A stretch of 64,000 nucleotides of DNA from Ilumatobacteraceae bacterium (GCA_963705485.1 CAVPJT010000004.1:16200-80199); one strand, 5' to 3'. Positions 2,655 to 7,511 are shown, numbered from the stretch's first letter. Notes: generated by a model from the sequence alone, not told the origin. Numbers and translations: made by a program.

Positions 2655-3188
2655 ATGACTAGAGTGTCCGCCATGACCACCGCTGATTCCACCATCACCT
2701 CCTGGCTCCGCGGGCGTCTCCCCGACGCCTGGACCGACGAGCCCGCCCAGATCACCATCGACCGTGACGAGATCACGATCATGCTCGCGGTGGCGCCACC
2801 TGAACTCGGCGCTGATGCAACCGATGCCGATCGCGCCGAAGCCCTCGCGGGACGAGCCACGGGCTTCCGAGAGGAGACGCGCGAGGCCCGGATGCAGATC
2901 GCACGAGAGGCCGAGCACCGCTACGACCGCAAGGTCGCCTGGGGTGTCGTCGTCGGGGAGCGAAGCGAACTCTTCACCCACCTCGCCGTGCCGGTGATGA
3001 CCCGGCTGCGTCAACCCGAACGGATGGTGCTCGACACCCTCGTGGCCGCGAACGTTGCTCGGTCCCGAGCTGACGCCCTGGCCTGGTGCGTGCGTCTCGT
3101 CGGGCAGCACACCGGCGACTGGCTGACTGAGTTGCGCGATGCGATGCAGGCCGTCGAGCGACTACGCGCCGAGGGGCCCGCCGCTTGA
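2655..3188 (+). CDS. hypothetical protein
   Basis: A 177-aa ORF with protein-like composition (alternative ATG at 2673). I recognise no domain. Confidence 0.5.
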   Translation: MTRVSAMTTADSTITSWLRGRLPDAWTDEPAQITIDRDEITIMLAVAPPELGADATDADRAEALAGRATGFREETREARMQIAREAEHRYDRKVAWGVVVGERSELFTHLAVPVMTRLRQPERMVLDTLVAANVARSRADALAWCVRLVGQHTGDWLTELRDAMQAVERLRAEGPAA

Positions 3189-4031: not shown

Positions 4032-4300
4032 GATCCTTCGATCCGTCGCTCGAAGACGAACTCGTACTCGAGGTAGTCGTTGAGGTGTTCGTTGCCGGGG
4101 AGCGGCGCGGTGAGCTGGGACGACTGCAACAGCATCCAGCCGTCGCGCAGCGCGGACACCCCGTTGGCGTAGGGCGGCTTGGCATCGGGGAGCGTCGGCC
4201 CGGTGCCGTCGCTGCCATCGTGGAACGCCCAGCCAACCGTGCCGGAGTCGAGCGCCGACCCGTTCGCCCAGAGATAGAGGACCTGCTGACGTTGCGTCAT
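4028..4300 (-). CDS. hypothetical small protein
   Basis: A 90-aa ORF whose stop overlaps the ppk2 start (ATGA at 4028-4031). No recognisable domain. Confidence 0.45.
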   Translation of the reverse strand: MTQRQQVLYLWANGSALDSGTVGWAFHDGSDGTGPTLPDAKPPYANGVSALRDGWMLLQSSQLTAPLPGNEHLNDYLEYEFVFERRIEGS

Positions 4301-4337
4301 CAGGACCCGACCAGCGCCGAGCGGCCCTCGAGCCGGG

Positions 4338-5191
4338 TCAGGTAGTGGTCGACGTCGTAGGACTGTCGTCGCCGGTCAGGTAGCGCCAGAGCTTCGAGCG
4401 TTGGACCTGCTCGTTGCGGTAGTCGGTGATGCTCATCCACGGCTGCATCGTCCGCAGGATCTGCGCCACGCTGTCGGGGAGCATCCGAGCGAAGACGTGA
4501 TCCGACGGTGGGTTCTGCAGTTCCGGCGAGGTCGTCGGTGTTCCAGAGGCGAACCTGCGGCACGGTCGGGTTGAGCCGCACCTTGTGCATCCAGCGGTCG
4601 CCGTCGCCAGGGTTCGGTTGGCCGGCGTGCCACAGCCCGTGGTGGAACACGACCACCGTGCCGGCGGGACCCGAGAACTGTTGCTCGCCGACGATGTGCT
4701 GGTACCGATCGAGGCCGGACGACCGGACTCGACGCAGGTGGCTGCCCGGCACGAATCTCGTGCCGCCCTCACCTGGTGCCACGTCGTGCGGATACCAGAA
4801 CAGCTGGACGTCGAAAGTCGGTGTCGGGCGAGTCGGTGATCGCGTCCACGTGCAGCGGCTGGGTGTAGGTGGAATGCGGCTGCAGGTGGTGGGTGAAGTC
4901 GTGGTCGAAGGTCGGGCTGGCGCCGACGAACGACTCGATGATCCCCGGCATCTGCGGCAGGCGCAGGTAGTCGCCGATCGCCGACGGCGGCGGGTAGCAC
5001 TCGTCGAGCGGTGTCCCGGTGTGCGGGCGGCTTGAGTCCGTCGGGTCCGAAACGCTCGAGTTCGAGGCGACGCATCTCGTCGATGCCACGTTCGTTGATC
5101 TCGGCGGCACGACTGCCTCGAAGCGGATGAACCCGTTGGCGACGAACTCGGCCATCTGCCGTGTCGTCAACCGGTGATCGGTACTCCCCAT
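4338..5191 (-). pseudogene. phytanoyl-CoA dioxygenase (PhyH) family protein, at least 4 frame switches
   Basis: The reading path runs across three frames. It reads MGSTDHRLTTRQMAEFVANGFIRFEAVVP / AEINERGIDEMRRLELERFGPDGLKPPAH / TGTPLDECYPPPSAIGDYLRLPQMPGIIESFVG..HVDAITDSP / GGTRFVPGSHLRRV..GTVVVFHHGLWHAGQPNPGDGDRWMHKVR / PPSDHVFARMLPDSVAQILRTMQPWMSITDYRNEQVQRSKLWRYLTG. Confidence 0.75.
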
Positions 5192-5253: not shown

Positions 5254-5580
5254 TCAGCCGGCCGCGTCGTCGCGAGCCAGCCTCACTCGGACGCCGATCG
5301 CCGCGGTCACCTGGTAGCCGGCGAGGTAGCGATCCTCCTCGTTCTCGCCGCCCCAGTAGCCGTACTCGAGATTCTCGCGGGCGAACTGTCGGCACGGCTG
5401 ACGAACGACGCAGGTGTCGCACAGCTTCGGCGCCTTGGCTTCGCGCCGGGCCCGCGCCTGGGGCCGTTCGGCGACCTTGCCGAAGAACAACTCGAGCTGG
5501 CCCTTGCACGCTGCGTACTCCTGCCACTCGACGCCTCGGGGCAGCGGCGTCTCGATCTCGGGGAGTTCGACGGCACTCAT
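5254..5580 (-). CDS. WhiB family transcriptional regulator
   Basis: Four Cys in the WhiB pattern (AACKGQ...LCDTCVVRQPC) followed by the GYWGGENEEDR turn and basic tail. Confidence 0.9.
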   Translation of the reverse strand: MSAVELPEIETPLPRGVEWQEYAACKGQLELFFGKVAERPQARARREAKAPKLCDTCVVRQPCRQFARENLEYGYWGGENEEDRYLAGYQVTAAIGVRVRLARDDAAG

Positions 5581-5669
5581 GCGGCCACCTCGCCGGATGC
5601 GGTGGTTGGCGGTGTGGGGGTGGTGCTGATGCGGATGGTGGTCATCGACGAAGATCCTTTCGGTGACGG

Positions 5670-5705
5670 GGGTCCGGCGCCGACGGGAGGATCGGCGCCG
5701 GACCC
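5670..5705 (-). terminator. GC-rich hairpin just downstream of the rhodopsin stop codon
   Basis: A perfect 14-bp inverted repeat, GGGTCCGGCGCCGA (5670-5683) / TCGGCGCCGGACCC (5692-5705), with an 8-nt loop. It starts 13 nt after the stop at 5719-5721. There is no U-tract. Confidence 0.5.
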
Positions 5706-5718
5706 GATTCAGGGGAGG

Positions 5719-6537
5719 TCAGCTCGATGCGAGTTCGCTCGCATCGTCGGGGACGATCAGCTCGGGATCTTCGTCCATGGCAGGTGCGTAACCGTCGGCC
5801 CGGGACTTGGCGAGGGCGATGGCCAACACCAGGAGTCCGAACAACGGCTTGGCGAGCACGTCGGCGATCGAGTAGCCGACCTGGCGGACGACCTCGGCCG
5901 TGGCTTCGTCGTTGATGATGCTCGGGGCCATGTAGGCCAGCGGGTACACGCCCCACGTCGCGAGCACGATGTAGCGGAGGCCGTCGACGAGCTTGCGGAC
6001 CTGTGGGCTCTGGCGGTCGAGCGACTTGCCGAGCTCGACGAAGAGCACGTACAGGATGTAGAGGAAGGGGATCGTCGAGGCGACGCCCCACACCGTGCGA
6101 GCGGTCGAGTCCGCCGCCGCGAGTTCGCCCGGCCAGCCGAGCAGGATCATCGCCACCGCAGCGCCCGTGAGTCGGACGAGGAGGCTCCGTGTGGTGCTCT
6201 TGTTGAGTTTGAGCACGATGACCAGCTCCGCCAGGAGGAGCGGCACCGTCAGCAGCCAGTCGACGTATCGGTAGCCCTCGTTGAAGGGTGCGCCGGTCTG
6301 GATGAACTCGCCGTCGACGAAGTCGAAGGCACTCGAGAACGAGTCGAAGATCCTGACGTAGTGGTAGAAGGCGATCGCCACGACGAGCGTGGACAGGGTG
6401 ACCGCCATGCGATGGCGGGGCGCCACCTTCGACCTGACGAGCAGGAAGAAGAGGAAGGCTGCGCCCATACAGGCGATGACGAACGAGAACGAGTTGTAGA
6501 CGAGGTTGAACTGGTTCTCACTCAGGACGAGATCCAT
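5719..6537 (-). CDS. microbial (type I) rhodopsin, xanthorhodopsin/actinorhodopsin-like light-driven proton pump
   Basis: FNEGYRYVDWLLTVPLLLAELVIVL gives the D/T/E motif with Leu at the spectral-tuning site. AFYHYV keeps the conserved His. YSIADVLAKPLFG carries the counter-ion Asp and the Schiff-base Lys. Seven hydrophobic helices are present. An AAGGAG Shine-Dalgarno sits 6 nt before the ATG at 6537. Confidence 0.9.
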   Translation of the reverse strand: MDLVLSENQFNLVYNSFSFVIACMGAAFLFFLLVRSKVAPRHRMAVTLSTLVVAIAFYHYVRIFDSFSSAFDFVDGEFIQTGAPFNEGYRYVDWLLTVPLLLAELVIVLKLNKSTTRSLLVRLTGAAVAMILLGWPGELAAADSTARTVWGVASTIPFLYILYVLFVELGKSLDRQSPQVRKLVDGLRYIVLATWGVYPLAYMAPSIINDEATAEVVRQVGYSIADVLAKPLFGLLVLAIALAKSRADGYAPAMDEDPELIVPDDASELASS

Positions 6538-6575
6538 GACGTGCTCCTTGCGGTAGGGCTGCTCGGGTGGCAACC

Positions 6576-6615
6576 GACACTGCAAGGTTAGCGATGTTTA
6601 GCAGTAATTAGCTCA
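6576..6615. promoter_or_regulatory. four 10-bp-phased direct repeats (candidate operator) in the rhodopsin/regulator divergent spacer
   Basis: GGTTAGCGAT GTTTAGCAGT AATTAGCTCA ATTCAGCACT. The TTAGC cores are at 6578, 6588 and 6598, and TCAGC is at 6608. The element lies in a locally AT-rich 115-bp spacer. Confidence 0.45.
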
Positions 6616-6652
6616 ATTCAGCACTAATAAAAATCACCGGTAGTGTGGCCCG

Positions 6653-7511
6653 GTGGACGACGAGCCCTTGGACCTCCAGCGCGCCGCCGACGAACTCGGT
6701 GTCCACTATCAGACCGCCTACCGGTGGGTTCGCACCGGCAAGTTGCCCGCGCAGCTCGTCGACGGCCGCTACCAGGTGACACGAGACGACATCGGCGACG
6801 ATCTCGGCTCGCCGGTCGGCACCGCAGGCGCCCACACCGCCGACCGCGAAACGGACGGCCCGCGCGGCCGAGCGCATGCACCGTGCGCTGGTCGAGGGAG
6901 ACGAGGCGACCGTTCGGACCATCGCCCACGGTCTCATCGACGAGGGGGCATCGATCGTCGACGTCATCCAGCAGGTGCTCGTCCCGCCGCTCGTCCGCAT
7001 CGGCGCCGACTGGCATGCCGGCTTGCTGACGATCTGGGTCGAGCATCGTGCGTCAGCGATCGTCGAGCGTCTCCTCGGCGGGATCGCGCCGAATCCGCGC
7101 GGCCGACGGCGGGGCACGGTGATGGTGGCCGCCGTCACGGGTGACCTGCATTCGTTGCCGTCATCGATGGCGGCCGTGGCGCTGCGCGCCGACAACTGGT
7201 GGGTGGAACACCTCGGCGCGAACATGCCACCCGACGAACTCGTCCGCTTCTGTGCCGAGCATCCGGTCGATGTGGCGGTGCTGTCGTCGACCAACCCCGA
7301 CACCGCCGCACTCGCCGCCGACACCGCTGACCGACTCCGCGCCGCGGGGGTCGGCGTGGTGCTCGGCGGTCCGGGCCGCACCCTCGACGATCTGCTCAGC
7401 GAGGTTCGGGCGGCTGCACGCCCGGTCGGCCGAGCACGGCTGACGAGCACGAGTACCGCCGGCGCCCGTCAGCCTGCCGGAGCCGTCAGCTCGTCTGGGT
7501 GCCCACCTTGA
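6653..7511 (+). pseudogene. HTH (excisionase/MerR-like) + cobalamin-binding domain regulator, CarH/LitR-like, with one frame switch near 6794
   Basis: The N-terminus LDLQRAADELGVHYQTAYRWVRTGKLPAQLVDGRYQVTRDDI is an HTH_17-type domain. After one extra base the frame continues ATISARR...MHRALVEGDEATVRTIAHGLIDEGASIVDVIQQVLVPPLVRIGADWHAGLLTIWVEHRAS (Wx9EH). It then reads VMVAAVTGDLHSLPSSMAAVALRADNWWVEHLGANMPPDEL..VDVAVLSS, a B12 Rossmann fold with the axial His. Confidence 0.75.

What the first reader, a model, noticed from the sequence alone, without database searches (positions are those of the whole stretch)
6576..6615. Four direct repeats phased exactly 10 bp apart in the rhodopsin/regulator spacer
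- The only strongly AT-rich stretch in this neighbourhood reads GGTTAGCGAT GTTTAGCAGT AATTAGCTCA ATTCAGCACT.
- The pentamer TTAGC (TCAGC in the last unit) recurs at 6578, 6588, 6598 and 6608, about one helical turn apart. All copies therefore face the same side of the DNA.
- CarH-type repressors bind as tetramers to tandem direct repeats, so this looks like an operator for the adjacent regulator.
- It overlaps where the -10/-35 elements of both divergent genes must lie.
Basis: seen in the sequence. Interest (0 to 1): 0.6.

Follow-up and report, generated by a model that had tools for sequence, protein, structure and literature searches.

The report
B12 light-switch operator before rhodopsin
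Four 10-base repeats between a light-driven proton pump gene and a vitamin-B12 light-sensor regulator gene are very probably that regulator's docking site, and a second copy of the site sits before the retinal-synthesis genes, so the cell most likely makes pump and pigment only in the light.

Summary
The repeats are real, but lie 10 bp right of the stated coordinates (6586-6625). TTAGC occurs only 60 times in the 2.68-Mb genome, and this is its only phased triplet.

In 78 of 78 related loci the best TTAG(C/T) x4 phasing upstream of the regulator gene is 10 bp. Cores are near-invariant, and the bases between them vary.

- **Promoters:** unit 1 carries the rhodopsin promoter's predicted -10 on the opposite strand. 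Unit 4 covers the -35 region of the regulator's leaderless promoter.
- **Regulator:** it has every sequence signature of CarH's B12 light-sensing module. Its DNA-binding head is excisionase-like (Pfam HTH_17), closest in fold to RacA, Xis and BldC, not the CarH MerR head. The 10-bp TTAGY repeat likewise differs from CarH's 11-bp TnnACA repeat.
- **Second site:** the best other match in the genome is a three-unit array before the lycopene cyclase (crtY) and retinal-forming dioxygenase (blh) operon. Nine relatives conserve it.
- **Caveat:** the regulator gene is frameshifted in this assembly.

Nothing was tested biochemically. This is a new variant of a known kind. Earlier notes of this scan describe the same system on other DNA.

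The parts
6586..6595 (+). Operator unit 1, GGTTAGCGAT (core TTAGC 6588-6592)
   Evidence: The TTA of the core is invariant in 16 orthologous spacers. PWM information is 1.7-1.9 bits per core position.
6596..6605 (+). Operator unit 2, GTTTAGCAGT (core TTAGC 6598-6602)
   Evidence: TTAG is invariant in the genus and is the best-conserved unit across 61 loci.
6606..6615 (+). Operator unit 3, AATTAGCTCA (core TTAGC 6608-6612)
   Evidence: The A and A/T before the core are also conserved.
6616..6625 (+). Operator unit 4, ATTCAGCACT (core TCAGC 6618-6622); it coincides with the -35 region of the regulator promoter
   Evidence: T(T/C)AG(C/T) is the usual form of unit 4. Its core starts 23-28 bp before the -10 hexamer in 59 loci, and 23 bp here.
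6626..6635 (+). Possible degenerate fifth half-unit, AATAAAAATC
   Evidence: Across 61 loci the positions 38-41 bp after the first core base of unit 1 read AATT at 62-78%, but the AG(C/T) part is not kept. This is an inference.
6585..6590 (-). Predicted -10 hexamer of the rhodopsin promoter, TAACCT on the minus strand, embedded in unit 1
   Evidence: The A three bases before the unit-1 core is 91% conserved. It is the T at position 6 of TAAnnT on the rhodopsin strand and is not part of the repeat pattern of the other units. TAAnnT is seen in most of 46 rhodopsin-linked loci. No transcription start data exist.
6641..6646 (+). Predicted -10 hexamer of the regulator promoter, TAGTGT
   Evidence: T, A and the last T are invariant in 16 spacers. 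A TAnnnT box lies 6 nt before the start codon in 45 of 59 loci, 7 nt in 10 and 8 nt in 4. This spacing implies a leaderless mRNA.
6653..6799 (+). Regulator, N-terminal DNA-binding head (Pfam HTH_17 winged helix), GTG start at 6653
   Evidence: Pfam PF12728, E 3.9e-9. The recognition helix VHYQTAYRWVR is invariant in 36 diverse homologues. The fold is closest to RacA, Pukovnik Xis and BldC.
6800..7511 (+). Regulator, linker plus B12-binding module (four-helix bundle and Rossmann fold). It is in another reading frame in this assembly, through one extra base near 6799.
   Evidence: Frames shown. PF02607 and PF02310 match. The indel was located against three orthologues. Intact orthologues of 255-267 aa are single ORFs.
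6557..6575 (-). Stem-loop at the predicted 5' end of the rhodopsin mRNA (GGUUGC-loop-GCAGCC)
   Evidence: A hairpin sits at the same place in 37 loci, with different stem sequences that stay complementary. Mean folding z-score is -1.9. RNAalifold on the MAFFT alignment gave no consensus structure.
6544..6549 (-). Shine-Dalgarno sequence AAGGAG of the rhodopsin gene
   Evidence: Read directly from the sequence and conserved in the alignment.
5719..6537 (-). Proton-pump-type rhodopsin gene, the main target of the operator
   Evidence: Pfam Bac_rhodopsin, E 1e-39. It is divergent from the regulator in 50 of 80 related loci.
5254..5580 (-). WhiB-like gene downstream of the rhodopsin; possibly co-transcribed by read-through of the hairpin in the gap after the rhodopsin stop codon
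   Evidence: Pfam Whib, E 1e-11. It lies on the divergent side of the regulator in 44 of 80 loci, and is the immediate neighbour in the 16 of those that lack a rhodopsin.

Best explanation
The four 10-bp units at 6586-6625 are the operator of the regulator encoded next door.

That regulator is a CarH-like photoreceptor. Its C-terminal module has every sequence signature of an adenosylcobalamin (AdoCbl, coenzyme B12) light sensor. Its N-terminal head is a small winged helix of the Pfam HTH_17 (excisionase-like) family, closest in fold to RacA, Xis and BldC.

**Proposed mechanism (inferred).**
- In the dark, the AdoCbl-bound protein assembles as an oligomer, most likely a tetramer as in CarH.
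- Its heads sit head-to-tail, one per 10-bp unit, on one face of the DNA.
- The complex covers the -10 box of the rhodopsin promoter (inside unit 1, opposite strand) and the -35 region of the regulator's own leaderless promoter (unit 4). Both promoters are therefore shut.
- Green or near-UV light breaks the Co-C bond, the oligomer falls apart and both promoters open.
- A weaker three-unit operator before the operon of a small membrane protein, lycopene cyclase (crtY) and the retinal-forming dioxygenase (blh) puts retinal synthesis under the same switch.

**Shown here:** the repeat, its significance, its conservation, its fixed geometry, its co-occurrence with the regulator, the protein signatures and fold, and the second site.

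**Inferred:** binding, stoichiometry, repression rather than activation, light dependence, and the transcription start sites.
For: **Repeat and its significance.**

**Phylogenetic footprint.**
- In 16 same-genus spacers the cores are invariant, the interleaved bases vary, and no indel falls inside the array although the flanks have indels.
- In 78 of 78 loci fetched through the regulator protein the best period is 10 bp. The mean score is 17.8 of 20, against about 11.3 at periods 8, 9, 11 and 12 and mostly 10-13 in shuffles.
- 70 arrays could be aligned, and three loci carry six units.

**Link to the regulator rather than to the rhodopsin.** The array is kept where the divergent gene is a WhiB-like gene, a HEAT plus glycosyltransferase protein or an amine-oxidase-type flavoprotein.

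**Geometry.** The unit-4 core lies 23-28 bp before a TAnnnT box, which lies 6-8 nt before the start codon. The A three bases before the unit-1 core, 91% conserved, completes TAAnnT on the rhodopsin strand.

**Protein.**
- Pfam finds HTH_17, B12-binding_2 and B12-binding.
- The motifs Wx9EH and DxHxxP-x41-SxT-x24-GG are read. They match the CarH signature quoted in PMC9304148.
- The light-response signature GxxW, EH, GxxH, GxxxP of PMC11796333 is also present.
- The AlphaFold model has mean pLDDT 94.5.
- Foldseek aligns it with full-length Thermus CarH over about 275 columns at E 1e-11 to 1e-12. It also matches the light-sensing B12 domains of photocobilin and CtMerR.
- The head alone matches RacA, Xis and BldC (TM 0.74-0.83 for BldC).
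- BldC binds direct repeats head-to-tail about one helical turn apart (PMC5859096).
- The recognition helix is invariant across 36 homologues, which parallels the invariant DNA core.

**Regulon coherence.**
- The best non-self PWM hit in the genome (18.6 bits, three units) lies about 40 nt before the small membrane protein, crtY and blh operon.
- In nine same-genus relatives the top hit of the crtY locus (23-35 bits) is in the same place and orientation.

**Precedent.** CarH tetramers bind three or four tandem repeats overlapping -35 or -10 elements and can control divergent promoters from one site.
Against: - **No experiment.** There are no binding, footprint, transcript-start or light-response data for any member of this branch.
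- **Frameshift.** In this assembly the regulator gene has one extra base near 6799, which separates the head from the B12 module. If the frameshift is real, the switch is broken or altered in this organism. The PhyH-like dioxygenase gene and apparently blh are also broken, which suggests assembly errors.
- **Not CarH in head or operator.** The head and the repeat differ from CarH, so tetramer stoichiometry is by analogy only. Arrays of three, four and six units exist.
- **Promoters are pattern-based.** The generic sigma-70 scan found none in 5500-6800.
- **No AdoCbl supply seen.** No PduO-type adenosyltransferase was found in the genome, which is only 60% complete.
- **Weak second site.** The crtY-blh site of this genome scores lower than in relatives, and its unit 1 gives TAAACG, a poor -10.
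Confidence: 0.72

Rival explanations
1. Same operator and same regulator, but the signal is cobalamin supply rather than light. The protein would repress whenever B12 is bound and so tune the genes to vitamin availability.
For: The B12-binding fold is shared with non-photoreceptor corrinoid proteins and methionine synthase. No photochemistry was tested.
Against: The Wx9EH motif, the His after the Trp, and the GxxW/EH/GxxH/GxxxP signature mark light-responsive modules. The targets are a rhodopsin and retinal-synthesis genes, which make sense for light and not for B12 supply.
Confidence: 0.08
2. The regulator binds the array but acts as an activator, or as a dual regulator, of one of the two promoters, for example by bending DNA as BldC does, rather than as a simple dark repressor.
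For: BldC-type heads distort DNA strongly and BldC sites can lie at unusual promoter positions. MerR-type proteins are often activators. Promoter positions here are only predicted.
Against: The array overlaps the predicted -10 of one promoter and the -35 region of the other. That is the classic repressor position and the one used by CarH.
Confidence: 0.1
3. The array is bound by a different protein, such as the WhiB-like factor, the paralogous HTH_17-B12 regulator or another small repeat-binding protein. The neighbouring regulator is then only a passenger.
For: A WhiB-like gene is a frequent neighbour. A paralogue exists at G000:C7.
Against: The array keeps a fixed distance to the regulator's own -10 and start codon in loci that lack the WhiB-like gene or the rhodopsin. 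The paralogue has a different recognition helix and no TTAG array before it. Only two HTH_17 matches exist in the assembled genome.
Confidence: 0.06
4. No dedicated regulator binds. The phased A+T-rich pentamers are promoter architecture, such as curved DNA or UP-like elements for two back-to-back promoters.
For: It is the only AT-rich patch in a 67% GC genome. Phased A/T tracts bend DNA.
Against: Conservation is of a specific pentamer with G and C/T, not of A/T content. The bases between cores vary freely. The same word array recurs at an unlinked operon of related function.
Confidence: 0.03

Closest known systems
CarH / class I LitR adenosylcobalamin photoreceptor-repressors (Thermus thermophilus CarH, PDB 5C8D/5C8E; Bacillus megaterium CarH; Myxococcales CarH)
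   Same: - Overall architecture: winged-helix head, linker, four-helix bundle and Rossmann B12 domain, with a full-length fold match.
- Motifs Wx9EH and D/ExHxxG/P-x41-SxT/V-x22-27-GG.
- An operator made of three or four tandem direct repeats on one face of the DNA, overlapping -35 or -10 elements and serving divergent promoters.
- Autoregulation, and control of isoprenoid-pigment genes.
   Different: - The head matches Pfam HTH_17 with recognition helix HYQTAYRWVR, not the MerR head with RxWERRY.
- The NCBIfam CarH model scores 57.7 bits against a cut-off of 400, and only over the B12 module.
- The repeat is 10 bp with core TTAG(C/T), not 11 bp nnnnTnnACAn.
- The main target is a proton-pump rhodopsin together with crtY-blh, not the carotenoid (crt) genes that CarH controls.
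- The mRNA is predicted to be leaderless.
BldC of Streptomyces (PDB 6AMA/6AMK; PMC5859096)
   Same: - The head has the same minimal MerR-like winged-helix fold (TM 0.74-0.83).
- BldC binds two to four direct repeats head-to-tail, about one helical turn apart, each with an AT-rich part. That is the layout seen here.
   Different: - BldC is a 68-residue stand-alone protein with no sensor domain.
- Its repeat consensus AATTxxxx(C) is not the conserved word here.
- BldC was not found by sequence search.
CtMerR of Chloracidobacterium thermophilum (PDB 8JBS/8JBT; PMC11796333) and photocobilins (PDB 8J2W/8J2X/8J2Y; PMC10979010)
   Same: The B12 modules are close in sequence and fold (photocobilin 8J2X, E 1e-22) and have been shown experimentally to respond to light. 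CtMerR is a precedent for a CarH-like sensor with a divergent DNA-binding head.
   Different: Photocobilins carry a bilin-binding domain and no DNA-binding head. No operator or regulon is given for CtMerR in the passages read. Neither is linked to rhodopsin genes.

Membership tests
CarH / class I LitR | N-terminal MerR-family winged-helix head with the RxWERRY recognition helix | tested here: not met
   Pfam assigns HTH_17. The helix reads HYQTAYRWVR. The NCBIfam CarH equivalog scores 57.7 bits against a cut-off of 400 and matches residues 72-243 only. PDB sequence matches to CarH cover the linker and B12 module only, residues 42-242 at most.
CarH / class I LitR | Wx9EH motif in the four-helix bundle, which caps the adenosyl group | tested here: met
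   The window reads W-HAGLLTIWV-EH. W120, E130 and H131 are invariant in 63 homologues. The motif definition comes from PMC9304148.
CarH / class I LitR | B12-binding motif D/ExHxxG/P-x41-SxT/V-x22-27-GG, with His as lower axial ligand | tested here: met
   DLHSLP, then 41 residues, SST, then 24 residues, GG, counted on the window translation. D164, H166 and G238 are invariant, and P169 is conserved in at least 90% of 63 homologues.
CarH / class I LitR | Light-responsive B12-domain signature GxxW, EH, GxxH, GxxxP (SignatureFinder, PMC11796333) | tested here: met
   GADW, EH, GDLH and GANMP are all present in the window translation. The signature is as quoted.
CarH / class I LitR | Overall three-domain fold like full-length Thermus CarH | tested here: met
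   The model has pLDDT 94.5. Foldseek against 5C8D/5C8E/5C8F gives E 4e-12 to 2e-10 over 268-288 columns.
CarH / class I LitR | Operator of tandem 11-bp direct repeats nnnnTnnACAn | tested here: not met
   The period is 10 bp in 78 of 78 loci. The core is TTAG(C/T).
CarH / class I LitR | AdoCbl-dependent tetramer that binds DNA in the dark and dissociates in light | not testable with these tools
   This needs purified protein, SEC-MALS and EMSA in dark and light.
BldC family | Minimal MerR-like winged helix without a coiled-coil dimerisation domain | tested here: met
   The head-only model (pLDDT 90) matches BldC 6AMA/6AMK at TM 0.74-0.83 and rmsd 1.3-2.4 Å. This holds for the head only.
BldC family | Stand-alone protein of about 68 residues with no sensor domain | tested here: not met
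   Intact orthologues have 255-267 residues with a B12 module.
BldC family | Direct-repeat consensus AATTxxxx(C) | tested here: not met
   The conserved word is (A/T)TTAG(C/T). Positions after the core are not conserved.
BldC family | Head-to-tail oligomerisation on direct repeats about one helical turn apart | not testable with these tools
   The DNA layout of three to six direct units at 10 bp is consistent with this. The binding mode itself needs a footprint or a structure.

The most novel reading that the evidence does not exclude
This is the operator of an uncharacterised branch of B12 photoreceptors, with at least 1623 protein clusters. The branch combines a BldC/Xis-type head with a CarH-type sensor.

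It would switch on, in the light, a proton-pump rhodopsin, the last two steps of retinal synthesis and a WhiB-like transcription factor. That would be a first concrete mechanism for light-induced rhodopsin expression in heterotrophic bacteria. The WhiB-like factor could extend the response to a wider light regulon.
Probability: 0.55. Interest if true: 0.72.

Novelty: new variant of a known kind. Interest (0 to 1): 0.62.

Why it matters
My ten literature searches found no paper that ties a B12 photoreceptor to a rhodopsin gene.

Here the sensor, its DNA word, both target promoters and a second target (retinal synthesis) can be read from sequence. Two cultured strains carry the regulator and its array. 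Nocardioides sp. Soil774 (L082) also has the adjacent rhodopsin. Ilumatobacter nonamiensis YM16-303 (L093) has a WhiB-like gene in that position instead. The hypothesis is therefore directly testable.

The finding also shows that the CarH sensor module has been joined to a different DNA-binding head with its own 10-bp repeat code. That widens the known design space of B12 light switches and offers a candidate orthogonal part for optogenetics.

Tried and rejected
- **Reads.** The frameshift could not be checked against reads and no RNA data could be laid on the spacer.
- **Generic promoter and terminator scan.** It found nothing in 5500-6800. The E. coli-type consensus is too strict for this high-GC actinobacterium, so promoter calls rest on conserved TAnnnT boxes.
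- **RNAalifold on the rhodopsin leader.** It gave no consensus structure because MAFFT misaligned the variable stems. Single-sequence folds show the hairpin.
- **Phytoene synthase locus (G000:C27).** No array was found there.
- **crtY locus of the more distant relative G033 (L115).** No hit above 8 bits.
- **BldC by sequence.** Not found. Only the fold comparison found it.
- **PduO-type adenosyltransferase.** Not found in the 60%-complete genome, which is uninformative.
- **Conserved inverted repeat GGTTGC-N6-GCAACC as a second protein operator.** Rejected, because its half-sites change between lineages while staying complementary. That fits an RNA stem.
- **Literature.** All ten searches found no report of this regulator branch or of B12 control of rhodopsin genes. 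Subscription journals are not covered.

Full report
**1. Observation**

The units are GGTTAGCGAT (6586-6595), GTTTAGCAGT (6596-6605), AATTAGCTCA (6606-6615) and ATTCAGCACT (6616-6625).

The stretch is the GC minimum of the neighbourhood, at 0.40 against about 0.65-0.75.

The window comes from a 2.68-Mb metagenome-assembled genome with 37 contigs, 67% GC and about 60% completeness. By the titles of related records it belongs to the Ilumatobacteraceae (Acidimicrobiales).

TTA is very rare in this genome, with 1109 occurrences on both strands. TTAGC occurs 60 times. Three of those 60 lie here, exactly 10 bp apart. No other place in the genome has three copies at any period from 8 to 13 bp. Shuffles of the window gave no match. 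The repeat is therefore real and not a chance event.

**2. Surroundings**

- **Left, minus strand.** A rhodopsin gene spans 5719-6537 (Pfam Bac_rhodopsin, E 1e-39). Its ATG is at 6537, preceded by AAGGAG. After it come a GC-rich hairpin and a WhiB-like gene at 5254-5580.
- **Right, plus strand.** A GTG at 6653 opens an HTH_17 DNA-binding head. [quoted passage not shown]
- **Frameshift.** Orthologues are single ORFs of 255-267 residues. The window has one extra base near 6799 relative to three of them. In the same assembly the PhyH-like dioxygenase gene at 4300-5191 is frameshifted, and blh appears to be, while at least the PhyH-like gene is intact in relatives. I therefore suspect assembly errors.

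**3. Phylogenetic footprint**

Sixteen of 36 same-genus genomes searched carry the rhodopsin. Every locus that includes the upstream spacer has the divergent regulator.

In an alignment of 16 spacers the invariant columns are TTA, TTAG, TTA and AG of the four cores, the T, A and last T of a TAnnnT box, and the start codon. The bases between the cores vary. No indel falls inside the array, although both flanks have indels.

A scan of one genome per species with the regulator alignment gave 80 loci. They come from Ilumatobacteraceae, other Acidimicrobiales, Nocardioides and other Propionibacteriales, and Microthrix.

In all 78 loci with enough upstream DNA, the best phasing of four TTAG(C/T) words is 10 bp. 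The mean score is 17.8 of 20, against about 11.3 at periods 8, 9, 11 and 12 and mostly 10-13 in shuffles.

Seventy arrays could be put in register, and three loci carry six units. The information profile shows four peaks of five positions separated by uninformative positions.

**4. The array belongs to the regulator**

Of the 80 loci, 53 have a rhodopsin (50 of them divergent). Forty-four have the WhiB-like gene on the divergent side, and in the 16 of those without a rhodopsin it is the immediate neighbour.

In other loci the divergent gene is a HEAT plus glycosyltransferase protein or an amine-oxidase-type flavoprotein. The array is present in all these contexts.

Its distance to the regulator gene is fixed. 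The unit-4 core starts 23-28 bp before a TAnnnT box. That box lies 6 nt before the start codon in 45 of 59 loci, 7 nt in 10 and 8 nt in 4. This spacing is that of a leaderless mRNA, and it puts unit 4 on the -35 region.

On the other side, the A three bases before the unit-1 core is 91% conserved and is not part of the pattern of the other units. With the TTA of the core it spells TAAnnT on the rhodopsin strand. In the window this is TAACCT at 6590-6585.

The distance from unit 1 to the rhodopsin start codon is 57-62 nt in most of the 46 rhodopsin-linked loci examined.

One array thus covers the predicted -10 of one promoter and the -35 region of the other. These promoter assignments are inferences from conservation. 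No transcript data were available, and the generic scan found nothing.

**5. The regulator**

The B12 module carries:
- Wx9EH, with a His after the Trp;
- DxHxxP-x41-SxT-x24-GG, which is the CarH signature as stated in PMC9304148;
- the four-part light-response signature GxxW, EH, GxxH, GxxxP of PMC11796333.

By sequence the nearest solved structures are the light-sensing B12 domains of photocobilins (8J2X, E 1e-22) and CtMerR, followed by methionine synthase and CarH.

An AlphaFold model built from 63 homologues has mean pLDDT 94.5. It aligns with full-length Thermus CarH over about 275 columns at E 1e-11 to 1e-12.

The head is not the CarH MerR head.
- Pfam calls it HTH_17.
- The NCBIfam CarH model scores 57.7 bits against a cut-off of 400, on the B12 part only.
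- The head alone (pLDDT 90) is closest to RacA, mycobacteriophage Pukovnik Xis and BldC, with TM 0.74-0.83 for BldC.

BldC is known to bind two to four direct repeats head-to-tail, about one helical turn apart (PMC5859096). CarH tetramers bind three or four tandem 11-bp repeats.

The recognition helix VHYQTAYRWVR is invariant in 36 homologues that are otherwise 53-82% identical to the reference sequence over the head. This matches the invariance of the DNA core.

A paralogue in the same genome (G000:C7, L117:1978-2832) has the helix VHYMTVYRYVR and no TTAG array before it.

**6. A second site**

A 40-bp matrix from 62 arrays scores the window site 46 bits and nothing else in the genome above 18 bits.

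With a three-unit matrix, the best non-self hit of the whole genome is GTTTAGCGGT GTTTATTCCG ATTTGAGTTA at G000:C6:107905-107934 (18.6 bits).

It lies about 40 nt before an operon encoding a 73-residue membrane protein, a lycopene cyclase (PF05834) and a beta-carotene 15,15'-dioxygenase (blh, PF15461). It is on the strand opposite to the operon, the same relative orientation as at the rhodopsin.

In nine same-genus relatives the top hit of the crtY locus (23-35 bits) sits in the same place and orientation. A tenth, more distant relative showed none. The phytoene synthase locus has none.

The predicted regulon is therefore the pump, the last two steps that make its chromophore, the regulator itself and probably the WhiB-like gene.

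**7. Mechanism and rivals**

The best-supported model is a CarH-like dark repressor with a BldC/Xis-type head.
- In the dark, an AdoCbl-bound oligomer places one head per 10-bp unit and blocks both promoters.
- Light dissociates the oligomer.

The steps shown and those inferred are listed under Best explanation. The rivals are a B12-supply sensor, an activator mode, another binding protein, and pure promoter architecture. Each is less well supported, for the reasons given under Rival explanations.

**8. Comparison with what is known, and novelty**

The system works like CarH, but it fails two defining features of that family: the head and the repeat. It resembles BldC in its head but is not a BldC. 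I file it as a new variant of a known kind.

The protein branch is large, with at least 1623 clusters at E <= 1e-20. It carries only automatic names: excisionase-family protein, LitR-type regulator, or corrinoid protein MtbC1.

HTH_17 fused to B12 domains has been listed in domain surveys, without function (PMC8717448).

Ten literature searches found no report linking a B12 photoreceptor to a rhodopsin gene.

Earlier notes of this scan describe the same system on other DNA (e1-2454775, e1-4428640). They gave me the BldC and CtMerR leads (e1-2113032, e1-1043992). I tested those leads here and did not take them as evidence.

Noticed in passing
window 6790-6805: The regulator gene has one extra base (about 6799) relative to three orthologues. 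The DNA-binding head (frame of 6653) and the B12 module (frame of 6876) are therefore in different frames. If real, the switch is split or broken in this organism.
   Followed up: partly
window 4300-5191 (minus strand); G000:C6:109737-110511: The PhyH-like dioxygenase gene downstream of the WhiB-like gene is frameshifted here. It is a single ORF in L021, and its two halves lie next to each other in the other same-genus loci. The blh match is also split between two frames and runs into a ferritin-like domain. Together with the regulator, that makes up to three broken genes, which points to indel errors in the assembly.
   Followed up: partly
window 6557-6575 (minus strand): A stem-loop sits a few bases after the predicted start of the rhodopsin mRNA. 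It is found at the same place in 37 loci, with different but complementary stems (GGUUGC/GCAACC, GUCCGCA/UGCGGAC, GCCGCGC/GCGGCG). It is probably a 5'-terminal RNA structure and not a protein site.
   Followed up: partly
window 5254-5580 (minus strand); L027, L049, L061, L076, L095, L100: The WhiB-like gene downstream of the rhodopsin is the direct divergent partner of the regulator in 16 loci that lack a rhodopsin. The older pairing may therefore be B12 sensor plus WhiB-like factor, with the rhodopsin inserted between them.
   Followed up: partly
G000:C6:107905-107934 (L104:4906-4935): A three-unit TTAG-type array lies about 40 nt before the operon of a small membrane protein, lycopene cyclase and blh. 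Nine same-genus relatives conserve it (L106-L114).
   Followed up: yes
G000:C7:49477-50331 (L117:1978-2832): A paralogous HTH_17 plus B12 regulator (284 aa, with Wx9EH) has a different recognition helix (VHYMTVYRYVR) and no TTAG array upstream. Its operator and targets are unknown.
   Followed up: partly
L002:598-1287 (= L094): In one same-genus relative the regulator is 229 aa and lacks the segment that holds Wx9EH, although the four-unit array is intact.
   Followed up: no
L052, L058, L063 (upstream of about position 3001): Three loci carry six phased units instead of four between the rhodopsin and the regulator.
   Followed up: no
L048, L059, L077, L085, L092, L096; L097: In some Acidimicrobiales the gene divergent from the regulator, behind the same array, is a protein of about 490-730 residues. 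Pfam on the L096 copy found HEAT repeats and a group-1 glycosyltransferase domain. In L097 it is an amine-oxidase-type flavoprotein. These may be further light-controlled targets.
   Followed up: partly
whole genome G000: TTA is extremely depleted, at 1109 occurrences on both strands of 2.68 Mb. TTAA occurs 56 times and TTAG 152 times. An operator built on TTAG is therefore almost free of chance look-alikes.
   Followed up: partly
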